A stretch of 64,000 nucleotides of DNA, from the IMG/VR virus record IMGVR_UViG_2061766007_000502. One strand, 5' to 3'. The position numbers were made by a program, and so were the translations under genes. Below, piece by piece: positions 15,253-30,492 of this stretch; within the stretch, counting starts at the first letter, position 1, and every line of letters starts with the position of its first letter. This stretch comes from an uncultured virus (IMG/VR IMGVR_UViG_2061766007_000502) (lineage: Duplodnaviria; Heunggongvirae; Uroviricota; Caudoviricetes). The notes under the pieces are model-generated. The model saw nothing but the letters and a program-made list of their open reading frames with translations. It was not told where the DNA came from and did not search any database.

Positions 15253-18200
15253 ATGGGTTTAATTTATACTAATCCACAAAAATTCAATTCAGGTATTCAT
15301 TTAAATGGTGCTACACCTTTGGATGACAGACTCCAGATAAATGACATTTCAGATATTTACATCAGCAATACTACAACCGGAACTGCCGGTTGTGCTATTT
15401 ACGGTATGGCTTATGATGGTATGGTTATATCTGTGGTTGATCCGAATCACGATCACTCTAAAGATGTAATTCTCATACAGTTGAAAGATGCGACTCCGTA
15501 CAAATACGGTTCTCCTGGTGAAGTTAATGAAAATAACTACACTGAGTACTGGACTGTATCTATTAGCGGTGATGTGTCATTCGACACAAGCGTGATTGAT
15601 GCAAGCATCCATAATATTCAGACTGAAATTGCTTAGATTAAACAAAAGAACATCAGTCAGGATTCAAGTCTGAATACATTTGACTCAAGTATTCGTGACT
15701 TATATAACAAACCAGAAATACAAGCATCCCCTGTATATTAGAAAGATGGACAGAGTGGCTATGTTCTCGGTGATATAAATGATGCTCCGGGGGAAAATGC
15801 TTTTGCAGAAGGTTATGGAACAAATGCATCCGGTTTTTATTCTCATGCTGAGGGAGAAGATACAACTGCATCCGGTGACTATTCTCATGCTGAAGGTTAT
15901 AGTACAAATACATCTGGTAATTACGGTTCTCATGCAGAAGGTTAGAGTACAATTGCATCCGGCAACAGTGCTCATGCTGAAGGTCATAATACAATTGCAT
16001 CCGGCAACAGTGCTCATGCTGAAGGTGGTTCGGAATAGACAATGATTTTAGTTAAAAAAAATTACATTGCTGGTGATAATGAGATTTTTGTAGAAAGTGA
16101 TGTTCCAAAAAAAGCATTATTAACATATAATAATGAATATGCTGTTGTAGAATATAGTGGATATGATTCAGAACAACAAGCATATCTATTAGATTTACAA
16201 ACATCATTTTCATTTGATATTAATGCTAATATGCGAATAGCAATGTATAAAACTGCAAGTGGTTAGTATTCTCATATAGAAGGTTATAATACACATGCAT
16301 CCGGTGATTAGTCTCATGCTGAAGGTGACGGTACAACTGCATCTGGTGAATCATCTCATGCAGAAGGTTAGAGTACAATTGCATCTGGTGAGTCATCTCA
16401 TACAGAAGGTTAGAGTACAATTGCATCTGGTAACTGTTCTCATACAGAAGGTATTGATACTATTGCATATGGTATAGCATCTCATGTTGAAGGAGAAATG
16501 ATAGCAGCAGCTGGTAGGGGTTCTCATGCTGAAGGGGGTCAATCTTATTCATCTGATAGTAAATTCACTCTTACAAAAGATTATCAAGGTAGTAATAGCA
16601 TTTATGTTGAATATAATAGTATTTTTGGAGAAACTACTGAAGGTGATCTAAAATTGCTGTTAAAATATAATAATGAATATGTTCTTACAACAAGTTATTA
16701 TTATGATGAAGATGAACAATCATATGTATTAATCATGGATGGTTATTTATCTTCTGAAAATGAAATTCCTACTGGTACAGAAATTAATTATATTGAAAGT
16801 GGTGCTTTTGGTGATTATTCTCATTCAGAAGGTTATAGTAATGCATCTGGTGAATATTCTCATGCAGAAGGATATTGGACAATTGCATCTGGTGAACGAT
16901 CTCATGCTGAAGGTAGCAGTACAACTGCATCTGGTAATTACGGTTCTCATGCAGAAGGTGATCAAACAATTGCATCTGGTGAATCATCTCATGCTGAAGG
17001 TTTAAATAGTACAGCATCTGGTTAGGCAGCTCATGCAGAAGGATTTGATACAAAAGCAACTGGTGAAATGTCTCATGCTGAAGGTTTAAATAATACAGCA
17101 TCTGGTTAGGCAACTCATGCAGAAGGCTATGGTTCTATTGCAGTTGGTGACTATTCTCATACAGAAGGTAAAGCATTAGCAGTTGGTGAATATTCTCATG
17201 CAGAAGGAATATGTGACTCACATGATGAATTGATTTTAACACAAGCATATAGACAAGGTGCTACAACTTTATATGTTGATAGAAATGATGTTTCTATTGG
17301 TACACCTATTAATTATGATAATGAATATCGAGTAGTTGAAGAGTCTGGTGAAGGTTATATAGAATTAAATGAAGGTTTTTCTTTTGATATACAAATCAGA
17401 GGAAAAGTTTATATATATGGTGGTGCAGGTGGCAAGTATTCACATTCTGAGGGAGAAAATTGTACTGCTGCCGGTGATTATTCTCATGCTGAAGGAACCA
17501 GTGTGACTGCTTTAGGATATGCTGCTCATGCAGAGGGTGGTGCTACAACTGCATTTGGTGATTAGTCTCATGCAGAAGGTGAAAGCACAACTGCATCTGG
17601 CACCAGTGCTCATGCAGAAGGTGGCAATACAACTGCATCTGGAGAATCATCTCATGCAGAAGGTGGCAGTACAACTGCATCTGGAGAATCATCTCATGCT
17701 GAAGGTGAAAGTACAACTGCATCTGGTGAAGCATCTCATGCAGAAGGTTATGATACATCTGCAATGAGTAATTATTCTCATGCTGAAGGATATAGCACAC
17801 AAACTACTAATGAAGCAGAACATGCATCTGGTAAGTACAACAAATCAACATCAGGAAAGACTCGGTTCTCAGTTGGCATCGGCACAGCAACCAACAAGAG
17901 AAAGAATGCATTTGAGATTACTATTGATGGTAGTGTATATATTAATGATATCGGCGGATATAACGGAACAAATGTCACATCAGCAAAGAATATTCAAAAT
18001 GTAGTAAAGACTATCAACTCTTCTGTCAATACACTTGATGCAAGTGTAAGAGATTTGTATATCAACGGCAGTAGTAGTGGCGGTTCCGGTAANNNNNNNN
18101 NNNNNNTAGAGTGGTTATGTTCTTGGTGATTCAAATGATGCTCCGGGAGAAAATGCTTTTGCATATGGTTATTATACAAATGCAGACGGTGACTATTCTC

Positions 18201-23397: not shown

Positions 23398-23428
23398 TTT
23401 GCTATTTCAAAAGTAAATTGTAATTTTG
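23398..23428 (+). promoter_or_regulatory. Bacteroidota promoter for the leader/tRNA operon
   Basis: TTTG-N19-TAATTTTG. Confidence 0.75.
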
Positions 23429-23470
23429 CAGAAAAGTTTTAAGATAAATAAATCAAATATAGAATAAAAT

Positions 23471-23566
23471 ATGAGAATGTTCACACAACATCAGCATCAA
23501 CATCAGCATGTGGGCCAGCAGTTCACAGGCACAAGTTGTTGTGTAACATTCTTACAAGCGATATAA
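23471..23566 (+). CDS. Gln/His/Thr-rich leader peptide MRMFTQHQHQHQHVGQQFTGTSCCVTFLQAI
   Basis: 31-codon ORF after an A-rich initiation region; ACA CAA CAT CAG CAT CAA CAT CAG CAT run. Confidence 0.75.
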   Translation: MRMFTQHQHQHQHVGQQFTGTSCCVTFLQAI

Positions 23567-25412: not shown

Positions 25413-25576
25413 TTTGTTATTTCAGATGTAATGTTTATCTTTGCATTGATATATTTCTTAGTTATGTGAAAATGTTGATAATGTTTTGAGGTTCAATAGT
25501 CAACTTGTGAAAGTCATGAACTATTTTTCCATAAGCTTTTGGTCCGAGTCGCTTGAGATGAGCGGTTCGGATTTTT
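25413..25576 (+). ncRNA. Promoter + sRNA unit A
   Basis: TTTG-N19-TATCTTTG; actt-GTGA-aagt hairpin; terminator tccgagtcgctt-gagat-gagcggttcgga + T run. Confidence 0.65.
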
Positions 25577-25655
25577 ATTATCATAATCCAACATTAAGTG
25601 TAATTTTCACAAAAATTAAAAGTTCTTAAAAAATTTAAGATTTTTGAATTTTTAT

Positions 25656-25882
25656 TTTGAAAGTAAAAAATATTATTGTATCTTTGCATTATGAAAATTA
25701 TACTCTAAAATGTTTTAGTAAGATTATATCAGCTTTTTGTTCAAATAATTTCATTGAAAGTGGTGTTAATAGTTCAACATGAACAACTTGTGATAAGTTT
25801 TTTTGAACTATTGTTTCTCCATAAAATGTTAAACATTAAGGTTTGCACATCCGGGTTGCTTGAGAAAGTCACTCGGATTTTT
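25656..25882 (+). ncRNA. Promoter + sRNA unit B
   Basis: TTTG-N19-TATCTTTG; aatagttca...tgaactatt hairpin; terminator tccgggttgctt-GAGA-aagtcactcgga + T run. Confidence 0.65.
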
Positions 25883-25961
25883 ATGTTAATGAATATCAAA
25901 CAGCCAATGTTATCAGAAGCTTTAAAAATAATTAATATGTTTAAGATTTTCTTATATTTCT

Positions 25962-26139
25962 TTTGTTGTTTGAAAGAAATAATATATCTTTGCACTAAGT
26001 TCATATATCATGCTAATAATTGTATTTTTCAATTAATGTTATGATTGCTTGTGAAAGTAGAAATAACATATACATTTTTTGACATATTAATTTAATTTAT
26101 CAGATAAACCGGTCAGCTTGTGATAAGCCAGCCGGTTTT
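25962..26139 (+). ncRNA. Promoter + sRNA unit C
   Basis: TTTG-N19-TATCTTTG; gctt-GTGA-aagt; terminator accggtcagctt-gtgat-aagccagccggt + T run. Confidence 0.65.
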
Positions 26140-26181
26140 ATTTAAAAAAACTTAAAACATTTGATATTTTCATGAATATAT

Positions 26182-26321
26182 TTTGTATAATCAAGAATAA
26201 TGACTATATTTGCATCGCAATAATTTACGACCTCTTATAAGTTTTTTTCATCTAAATCGTCATATATAAGAAAACAACATGTAATTATTCCGGATTGCTT
26301 GAGAAAGTCATCCGGTTTTTT
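26182..26321 (+). ncRNA. Promoter + sRNA unit D
   Basis: TTTG-N19-TATATTTG; terminator ccggattgctt-GAGA-aagtcatccgg + T run. Confidence 0.65.
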
Positions 26322-26379
26322 ATTTGTAAATACTATTTCTTAAAAATCATTAACAACTATAAGAATATTGCTGTATTAT

Positions 26380-26572
26380 TTTGCAGTTTCGAGTTTTGTT
26401 ATTATTTTTGCATTTAATTAAAGAAGATGATTCTTCGTTCAATATCTAAACAAGAAAATTCTATCATCAAAATTTGCTAAGTTCTATATTGTCGGGTAAT
26501 CAAAACCCGTTGTGCAACATTATTTTAAGTGTTTAATTGTGACCGGATTGCTTGAGAAAGTAATCCGGTTTT
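26380..26572 (+). ncRNA. Promoter + sRNA unit E
   Basis: TTTG-N19-TATTTTTG; terminator accggattgctt-GAGA-aagtaatccggt + T run. Confidence 0.65.
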
Positions 26573-26689
26573 ATTGTATTGGAATTATCCTATACAACTA
26601 TAGGGTTTTTCCCCTTCAGATATATGGAATTTCTGTCCGAAAAATACTGTCATTCGCGTCTAAATATTAAAACAATTAATTTAATAATT

Positions 26690-27154
26690 ATGAAACACAA
26701 AATAACAACTATCATCATTCTCTTAGCAACTATGTTGCTTACTTCATGTGCATCTTATGCACAAGTTTCTGTCAGTGCTGCAATTGACACCGGATTCGGA
26801 CTGATAACCTATCAGAACACATACATGAATTATCCGGTAGTCTATATGCAGGGTGTGCCATACTGCAGATATTACTATGATAATACTTGGCAGTACAGAA
26901 TCATCCCGGTTGAACACAGACATCACATAGTTCATCTTGACAGACCAATGGAGTTCAGGAGAATACCGGTTGCCCGTCATCCACATCATTTGCCACGCCC
27001 ACATCATATGCATGCAGTACCTCCACCACCAGTACATCACGGGCGTCCTGCACATATGCACGGTCATTCATCAACCAGACATTTTGCAGACAAGCATCAT
27101 CACGGCAGTAATGCCCCAAAACACGGCGGCAAGGGTCATGACAGACGCAGATGA
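26690..27154 (+). CDS. Predicted lipoprotein with His/Pro-rich C-terminal tail
   Basis: Signal peptide MKHKITTIIILLATMLLTSC (lipobox); tail RHPHHLPRPHHMHAVPPPPVHH. Confidence 0.7.
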   Translation: MKHKITTIIILLATMLLTSCASYAQVSVSAAIDTGFGLITYQNTYMNYPVVYMQGVPYCRYYYDNTWQYRIIPVEHRHHIVHLDRPMEFRRIPVARHPHHLPRPHHMHAVPPPPVHHGRPAHMHGHSSTRHFADKHHHGSNAPKHGGKGHDRRR

Positions 27155-29113: not shown

Positions 29114-29416
29114 ATGGAGAAGAATACAAGAGACGATATAAAGTATGGTGTTTACAGAATCATTGCGGATATAATGAAACTGCCGGACAACTGGTACACG
29201 TTTAAGTCTAATGATTCCGAAGACGTGATGCTGTTCCGTGAATTGAATGCTGATTCGCTCGATGCTCTTCACATAGTTATGGAAATTGAATATGAACTGC
29301 CGATTGTATTGAAGGATTCTCTATTTACGTCTGATGTTACCTTGGGACAAATAATTGATNNNNNNNNNNNNNNNACAAATAGTGAATTGACATCACATCA
29401 GTTAAGTTAGTAGTGA
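29114..29416 (+). CDS. Acyl carrier protein-like
   Basis: ELNADSLDALHIVMEIEYEL...TLGQII matches the ACP phosphopantetheine site; 3' end interrupted by Ns. Confidence 0.7.
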
Positions 29417-29523: not shown

Positions 29524-30492
29524 TTATCTTCCTGTTGTGAGCCATGTGTAGTTGTTTATCCATCCGTAATTCTTTGCTGTCACATATGCTCTGTAATAGT
29601 TGATTCTTAATTCACTCATTGTCTTACATGTTTTCGCTACATCAAGACATTTGTCTTCAGTCCATTGCTTCCGTTTCTTATCCAGCCAAGTGTATTGATC
29701 AATCCAATTGTAGTATTTGGCTATTGTGTATGCACGGTTGTATTTCTTTCTGAACTCTTCAGCAGTCTTGCATTTTTTGGCTATATCATAGCAAATCTCC
29801 TGAGACCATTTGTTTTCTGTTTTTATGAACCATGTGTAATTTTTTAGCCAGTCGTTGTTTTTGGATGCGACATATGCTCCGGGATATTTCTTTTCAAATG
29901 ATGTTGCTGTCTTACATTTCTTGGCTGCTTCATAGCAGTTTTCCTGAGTCCACTTGATTCTTTGTTCTGCTGCTATCTTACGACCGTTTTTAAACCATGT
30001 ATAGTCTTTGAGCCAACCGTTCTTTCTTGCTGTCGAGTATGCACCTTGATATTTCTTGCTGAATTCTGTCGCTGTCGTGCATTCTTTAGCGACTTTTCTG
30101 CATGATCTACGGGTCCATTTGATTCTGTTAGGGATAAACCATGTGTAATCCTCAAGCCATTTATTTTTTCGTGCAGCAACATATGCTCCGGGATATTTCT
30201 TCCAAAACTCAGAAGTTGACTCACATTCTCTTGCAGCATTGAGACAGTTCTCTTGTGTCCATTTCGCTCTTGTCTTTCCGGCTTTGATGCGACCATTGAT
30301 GAACCATTTGTAGTCTTTACACCACCCGTTCTTTTTTGCCGACTTATATGCTACTTGGTATTTTTCCAAAAATTCCGACAAAGAACTGCATTGCTTAGCT
30401 GCATTGTAGCAGTTATCATAGTCTTGCCAGAACCCGCGTTTTACATAGGTGCGTGGTTTCTCTACTGTTTTTATATTTTCTATATTAATCAT
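29524..30492 (-). CDS. Tandem-repeat protein (six ~50-aa KWT..C...AK.C....F.KKY..AY..A.KN.WL..YTW units)
   Basis: Repeats visible in translation; very basic; no nuclease motif seen; host-type -7 box at 30525-30532. Confidence 0.75.
   Translation of the reverse strand: MINIENIKTVEKPRTYVKRGFWQDYDNCYNAAKQCSSLSEFLEKYQVAYKSAKKNGWCKDYKWFINGRIKAGKTRAKWTQENCLNAARECESTSEFWKKYPGAYVAARKNKWLEDYTWFIPNRIKWTRRSCRKVAKECTTATEFSKKYQGAYSTARKNGWLKDYTWFKNGRKIAAEQRIKWTQENCYEAAKKCKTATSFEKKYPGAYVASKNNDWLKNYTWFIKTENKWSQEICYDIAKKCKTAEEFRKKYNRAYTIAKYYNWIDQYTWLDKKRKQWTEDKCLDVAKTCKTMSELRINYYRAYVTAKNYGWINNYTWLTTGR

What the first reader, a model, noticed from the sequence alone, without database searches (positions are those of the whole stretch)
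25413..26572. Five tandem promoter-sRNA-terminator cassettes
Seen: 1.2 kb holds five TTTG-N19-TAnnTTTG promoters, all with 19-nt spacing. Each is followed by a ~100-190-nt non-coding body and a paralogous terminator (ccgg..gctt-GWGA(T)-aag..ccgg-U run), and units A-C have a second similar hairpin. The bodies diverge while promoters and hairpins are conserved. Inference: a battery of early phage sRNAs with a shared protein-binding scaffold and variable targeting regions, or sponges for a host RNA-binding protein. Paralogous sRNA clusters are known in Bacteroides (e.g. FopS bound by RbpB); I cannot verify any relationship.
Basis: partly seen in the sequence, partly recalled or inferred. Interest (0 to 1): 0.8.

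Follow-up and report, generated by a model that had tools for sequence, protein, structure and literature searches.

The report
Phage battery of translation-blocking small RNAs
A giant cattle-gut phage carries five small-RNA genes in a row, each built like the RNAs that gut Bacteroidota use to cover a start codon and stop translation, so it may silence several host or phage genes at once.

Summary
There are five sigma-ABfr-type promoters (0.04 expected by chance), five terminators and three extra hairpins with the same CUU-GWGA(U)-RAG loop, in a TAG-recoding, Lak-related rumen megaphage. Contigs from four other studies carry the array; one fuses units A and B through the shared hairpin. Indels break three candidate mini-ORFs.

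New here: the stretch 5' of the terminators reads as the reverse complement of a Bacteroidota start-codon region (five units summed p=0.002; alone only C and E). Other phage terminators with this loop show the same signal (15 of 55 against 3.7 expected; controls 3 of 52). In one Bacteroides-type phage lineage, a single such RNA is complementary to 3-6 sites in its own genome, most of them gene starts.

Best reading: start-codon-blocking sRNAs that work like GibS/FopS, with different seeds. They are not FopS or GibS members (R1 and Rfam tests failed). No target was found in the window, host genomes could not be searched, and no RNA data were listed. New variant of a known kind.

The parts
25413..25443 (+). 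Promoter A (-33 TTTG, 19 nt, -7 TAnnTTTG)
   Evidence: consensus as quoted in PMC7366714
25450..25579 (+). sRNA A, about 130 nt (start inferred): hairpin 1 (loop motif at 25504), CAT at 25515 and 25530, terminator 25541-25579
   Evidence: paralogue of B
25656..25686 (+). Promoter B
25693..25884 (+). sRNA B, about 190 nt: hairpin 1 (25787), candidate anti-AUG at 25820, terminator 25850-25884
   Evidence: A/B fusion allele in run X3
25962..25992 (+). Promoter C
25999..26140 (+). sRNA C, about 140 nt: hairpin 1 (26048), strongest anti-AUG seed at 26083, terminator 26107-26140
   Evidence: (p 0.01-0.02)
26182..26212 (+). Promoter D
26219..26322 (+). sRNA D, about 104 nt: CATs at 26249 (changed in three relatives), 26261 and 26278; terminator 26289-26322
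26380..26410 (+). Promoter E
26417..26575 (+). sRNA E, about 159 nt: anti-AUG seed at 26518, terminator 26541-26575
   Evidence: (p 0.03)

Best explanation
The array is five separately transcribed, trans-acting small RNAs. The host primary sigma factor fires each promoter and each RNA ends at an intrinsic terminator (inferred from sequence). A U-rich stretch containing CAU, about 20-40 nt before the terminator loop, pairs over the AUG and the A-rich upstream positions that Bacteroidota ribosomes need, blocking initiation as GibS and FopS do (inferred). The constant CUU-GWGA(U)-RAG loop is a GNRA-like handle, probably for a host protein or for stability (inferred). The seeds differ, so each unit aims at different mRNAs. 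I put the targets at about 60% host, 40% phage genes outside the window. The unit number changes by recombination between the shared hairpins (shown as a 283-nt deletion allele in one contig).
For: Anatomy far above chance. Stem covariation. Array covered by contigs of 4 of 4 other studies laid. Anti-start score summed over five units, p=0.002. In other viruses 15 of 55 terminators with this loop carry a strong anti-start sequence against 3.7 expected; control terminators 3 of 52 against 2.2. In five related phages the 11-nt complement of one promoter-seed-hairpin RNA occurs at 21 further sites, control pattern 0; 16 of 18 sites examined head ORFs of 40 aa or more. Two Lak-like phages have 15-17-nt complements 16-23 nt upstream of the next two gene starts. 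5 of 8 exact 20-nt matches to the complement of seed C head ORFs of at least 90 aa. GibS has the same hairpin and acts on start regions.
Against: No target was identified for any unit: 0 of 5 have an own-gene match beyond shuffles in the window. A, B and D are not significant alone (p 0.20-0.41), and a threshold test on the five gave 2 against 1.3 expected, p=0.40. D's best-scoring CAT is changed in 3 of 4 relatives (26250 A>G). The first version of the cross-virus test gave a summed-score p of 0.18 after dropping real opposite-strand genes. Control terminators show a weak excess at the lower threshold (12 of 52 against 7.5, p=0.04). The matrix comes from AT-rich phage genes, not the host. 26 of 55 terminators with this loop score below the lower threshold, so the loop is also an ordinary terminator loop.
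Confidence: 0.6

Rival explanations
1. Protein sponges: the RNAs are made in bulk to present eight copies of the conserved loop, or U-rich single strands, and titrate a host RNA-binding protein such as an RRM protein like RbpB. The bodies are spacers.
For: The loop is the only feature shared by all units and is doubled in A-C. RbpB binds GibS, which has this hairpin, and antagonises FopS (PMC11697453 sections 8 and 13).
Against: It does not explain the anti-start signal or the perfect gene-start complements in other phages. FopS-10 binds RbpB although its terminator lacks this loop.
Confidence: 0.17
2. Mixed or decayed array: only some units (C, E, perhaps B) are active antisense RNAs. The rest are emptied promoter-terminator cassettes or duplicates kept by recombination.
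For: A, B and D are individually weak. A/B duplication and fusion allele, and many indels in the bodies. The loop is a common terminator loop in these phages.
Against: Promoters and hairpins are intact in all five units. None of the 6 substitutions and 11 indels displayed between 25413 and 26580 hits a promoter box or loop, though only 40 of 168 substitutions and 12 of 26 indels were displayed.
Confidence: 0.15
3. Small-peptide genes or leader peptides.
For: Short ATG-started frames exist on the + strand (for example 17 aa in E; 8 and 13 aa in C).
Against: No peptide is shared between units and D has none. Indels in relatives disrupt the frames at 25826, 26010 and 26427. The 5-aa frames in A and B could not be checked. 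No minus-strand promoter of this pattern lies in the array.
Confidence: 0.05
4. CRISPR-like mini-array or RNA anti-CRISPR (solitary repeat units).
For: Repeated hairpins with variable sequence between them.
Against: Every unit has its own promoter and terminator. Spacing is irregular. No Rfam family other than tRNA reaches its cut-off in the window. Host repeats could not be compared.
Confidence: 0.03

Closest known systems
GibS (Rfam RF04182; PMC7366714)
   Same: Trans sRNA of similar size, single-stranded AU-rich seed covering start codons, internal CUUGUGA(U)AAG hairpin (Rfam consensus; probe AWO-030), intrinsic terminator.
   Different: 21.3 bits against a cut-off of 115. No R1 match. Here the seed lies just before the terminator, not at the 5' end. 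Five different seeds in tandem in a phage rather than one chromosomal gene.
FopS family (PMC11697453)
   Same: Sigma-ABfr promoters, single-stranded seed plus terminator, repression next to the start codon; the paper notes one copy in a phage.
   Different: FopS paralogues share one seed (R1) and vary elsewhere. These units share the hairpin and vary in the seed. The FopS-10 terminator lacks the loop (read from oligos).
Unnamed single-copy modules in other phages found here (G010-G014; G005, G007; tRNA-cluster copies in G001-G004)
   Same: Same loop, the anti-AUG stretch, and often a sigma-ABfr promoter.
   Different: One to four copies per record, some with perfect own-gene targets. No five-unit array with separate promoters was seen.
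Phage P1/P7 C4 antisense RNA (RF01695 listed in PMC2864571; mechanism recalled)
   Same: Phage-encoded trans antisense RNA that blocks translation starts.
   Different: No Rfam match. Different phylum and structure. A single RNA.

Membership tests
FopS | Carries the R1 seed of GibS | tested here: not met
   a natural R1-type stretch (L310) and the FopS probe against each unit, p 0.10-0.97. B resembles R1 by eye but p=0.69.
FopS | Canonical sigma-ABfr promoter | tested here: met
FopS | Single-stranded seed followed by an intrinsic terminator | tested here: inconclusive
   Terminators predicted in all five. Seeds are open or weakly paired in centroid folds, partly paired in D. A-C have an extra hairpin.
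FopS | Bound by RbpB | not testable with these tools
   needs CLIP or EMSA
FopS | Represses SusC-like transporter mRNAs | not testable with these tools
   no host genome reachable
GibS (RF04182) | Rfam gathering score of 115 bits | tested here: not met
   21.3 bits, E 3.3
GibS (RF04182) | CUUGUGA(U)AAG hairpin | tested here: met
Start-codon-blocking trans sRNA (functional class) | Seed complementary to a translation start region | tested here: inconclusive
   generic anti-start signal p=0.002; no specific target
Start-codon-blocking trans sRNA (functional class) | Expressed as a discrete non-coding RNA | not testable with these tools
   no RNA holder listed
CRISPR array / RNA anti-CRISPR | Repeat matches a CRISPR direct repeat | tested here: inconclusive
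   no Rfam match; host repeats unavailable

The most novel reading that the evidence does not exclude
Bacteroidota phages use one modular RNA chassis: an exchangeable anti-AUG seed bolted to a fixed GNRA-like hairpin read by a host protein. Some phages aim it at their own genes. This megaphage has built an expandable five-guide battery aimed at separate host mRNAs (for example receptor, capsule or defence genes), a programmable multi-target translation knock-down from a phage.
Probability: 0.3. Interest if true: 0.85.

Novelty: new variant of a known kind. Interest (0 to 1): 0.62.

Why it matters
Lak-type phages are known mainly from metagenomes (recalled), and how they steer their Prevotella-type hosts is little known. 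A battery of start-codon-blocking RNAs would be a concrete, RNA-only route. The seeds predict their targets once host genomes are searched. The fixed loop is a ready bait for the protein partner of Bacteroidota sRNAs, which lack classical RNA chaperones (PMC11697453 passage). The single-copy example in G010-G014, with perfect matches to several of its own gene starts, is a directly testable phage regulon.

Tried and rejected
No whole genome is held.

RNA evidence: no RNA holder listed; this says nothing about expression.

Relatives through flanking proteins in IMG/VR: none for one protein, one weak partial hit for the other. blastn against GenBank phages: 38 short matches, 20 listed; only the cr107_1 hairpin was informative. 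Metagenome scan: 89 matches, none an array relative (one search had an offset error for this set).

Lak-A1, Lak-B1 and Lak-C1 have no array: 3, 9 and 5 loop matches against control counts of 4, 4 and 1, with one plausible lone hairpin in B1.

Own targets in the window: none (the best, unit A at p about 0.05, is an ATG in the repetitive region at 15815). Own targets of 7 seeds in G001, G002, G004 and G009: 0 of 7. Complement of seed B in IMG/VR: 0 hits. R1 similarity was not significant. Five look-ups of earlier findings returned nothing. One search timed out and was rerun smaller.

Full report
CONTEXT. The window is 35.9% GC with N gaps. It reads with TAG as Gln: long-frame cover rises from 0.76 to 0.85, and a 351-aa DNA methylase reads through two TAGs. 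The protein at 31159 matches Prevotella phages Lak-A, B and C at 48-53% identity (15 of 18 hits) and IMG/VR contigs up to 448 kb. The two best DNA holders are bovine gut metagenomes. It is a Lak-related rumen megaphage; a Prevotella-type host is inferred. The array lies between divergent small genes, 1.3 kb from a five-tRNA cluster. No whole genome is held.

OBSERVATION. Confirmed. Five promoters of the sigma-ABfr consensus (as quoted in PMC7366714) and eight loop motifs were found, against shuffle means of 0.04 and 0.05. The terminator stems covary (4 of 12 pairs change on both sides) around a nearly fixed CUU-GWGA(U)-RAG top (six related sequences, so not a probability). Only 2 of 5 pass a strict terminator scan. 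The 19-nt spacing is general in this window (9 of 13 hits). The bodies of A and B are paralogous; B-D is borderline and the other 8 pairs are at chance. No Rfam family reaches its cut-off; GibS scores 21.3 of 115 bits, through the hairpin.

CONSERVATION. Contigs from four other studies were laid on the region. One 1627-nt contig spans the whole array, and others span 746-1603 nt. One contig joins 25499 to 25783, fusing hairpin 1 of A to hairpin 1 of B: a four-unit allele. Only 40 of 168 substitutions and 12 of 26 indels were displayed. Of those in the array, none hits a promoter box or loop. Several disrupt short frames (those starting at 25826, 26010 and 26427). One removes D's best-scoring CAT (26250, 3 of 4 runs); D keeps two other CATs. 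The three published Lak genomes searched lack the array.

WHAT THE VARIABLE PART IS. Read backwards, the stretch before each terminator resembles an A-rich leader plus ATG. I scored it with a start-region matrix from 167 phage genes against dinucleotide shuffles. The five units together gave p=0.002; C gave 0.023, E 0.033 and A, B, D 0.20-0.41. A threshold version was not significant for five units (2 against 1.3). The region was chosen after looking at the sequence.

Sixty were non-redundant and 5 were dropped because the ATG starts a real opposite-strand gene. Strong anti-start scores occurred in 15 of 55 (3.7 expected), and 29 of 55 passed a lower threshold (11.5 expected). Control terminators (55, 3 dropped) gave 3 of 52 (2.2 expected) and 12 of 52 (7.5 expected, p=0.04). 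An earlier version that missed CATs near the stem gave 22 of 56 against 11.0, with a summed-score p of 0.18. Below the fixed top, the stems of 70 such hairpins pair at 77-99% per position with many pair types; the top was fixed by the search pattern.

NATURAL EXAMPLES WITH TARGETS. In five related phages (G010-G014, one lineage; a Bacteroides-type host is inferred from the promoter), a promoter-seed-hairpin RNA of about 70 nt is complementary to 21 other sites, 3-6 per record, with 0 for the control pattern. Of 18 sites fetched, 16 head ORFs of 40 aa or more; 14 of these also have an upstream in-frame stop within 25 codons. Two of the remaining three were read as 60- and 83-aa ORFs. In Lak-like G005 and G007, a 3'-end copy is complementary over 15-17 nt to sites 16-23 nt upstream of the next two gene starts; the same 14-mer also occurs 1-3 times in three Lak-type records where I saw no such RNA.

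In contrast, copies in about 90-kb phages, several interleaved with tRNA genes, had no own target: 0 of 7 seeds in G001, G002, G004 and G009, three of which are 95-100% complete. By inference these aim at the host or at nothing. The window's five seeds also have no target in the window, which is probably about an eighth of the genome. Five of 8 exact 20-nt matches to the complement of seed C in IMG/VR head ORFs of at least 90 aa. Three of them look like GDP-mannose dehydratases (recalled from the N-terminus, not tested). They are not host records, so this shows only that the sequence is start-like.

MECHANISM. Shown: the anatomy, stem covariation, persistence across studies, recombination between hairpins, the statistical anti-start signal, and perfect start-region complements in other phages. 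Inferred: transcription by the host sigma factor, pairing over the AUG and the upstream adenines (Bacteroidetes lack Shine-Dalgarno sequences and favour A at -3, -6 and -11 to -15), repression, a protein role for the loop, and the targets. Odds: antisense battery 0.60, sponge 0.17, partly decayed array 0.15, peptides 0.05, CRISPR-related 0.03.

COMPARISON. It works like GibS and FopS but is a member of neither. FopS is defined by R1, which these units do not match. GibS carries the loop; FopS-10's terminator does not (oligos). The logic is the reverse of FopS: constant scaffold, variable seed.

LITERATURE SEEN. PMC11697453: abstract, passages, sections 8, 13 and 28, and term searches of 6 supplementary files; its main supplementary PDF and source data were too large to read and may bear on motif overlap. 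PMC7366714, PMC2864571, PMC10690425, PMC13750123: passages only, supplements not searched. Prezza 2022: not held. PMC8040213: listing only. Searches listed nothing describing a tandem sRNA battery in Lak-type phages or this loop-plus-seed module. The library lacks most subscription papers, and large candidate-RNA catalogues may already contain the hairpin.

VERDICT. Real and non-coding; a new variant of a known kind; interest 0.62, held down by the lack of expression data and of any identified target for these five units.

Noticed in passing
window 23398-23566 (+): A sigma-ABfr promoter is followed by a 31-aa ORF rich in Gln and His codons (QHQHQHQH run), just upstream of the tRNA-Gln/His/Thr/Gln/Gln cluster. 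It looks like an attenuator-type leader matched to the tRNAs it precedes.
   Followed up: no
window 24303 promoter, RNA about 24266-24075 (-): Promoter-driven, ORF-free, strongly folded RNA of about 190 nt (-65.6 kcal/mol) converging on the tRNA cluster. No Rfam family at a useful score.
   Followed up: partly
window 6547 (+), 9343 (+), 8203 (-): Further sigma-ABfr promoters; what follows them was printed but not analysed.
   Followed up: no
L297, L300, L312, L279, L308 (G010-G014): A single sRNA-like unit complementary to the starts of several of the phage's own small genes; a candidate immunity or timing regulon.
   Followed up: yes
L161 about 1455-1525; L163 about 1455-1525 (G007, G005): A 3'-end seed plus hairpin complementary to short upstream-ORF sites before the next two genes, conserved in two Lak-like phages.
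   Followed up: partly
L075, L100, L116, L128: Copies of the hairpin module interleaved with tRNA genes; tRNA processing could release them as sRNAs (inference).
   Followed up: partly
L310 about 1160-1226: An R1-type (GibS/FopS) seed joined to the GUGA-loop terminator in a viral contig.
   Followed up: no
window 26690-27154 (+): His/Pro-rich protein with a lipoprotein-like N-terminus directly after the array; no Pfam family.
   Followed up: partly
window 29117-29359 (+) and 29524-30492 (-): Acyl-carrier-like protein (weak PF00550 hit) and a 322-aa repeat protein with its own promoter and no Pfam family.
   Followed up: no
L134 301-1980: A 26-copy CRISPR-like array with 66-nt period in a viral contig, caught by chance by the loop pattern.
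   Followed up: no
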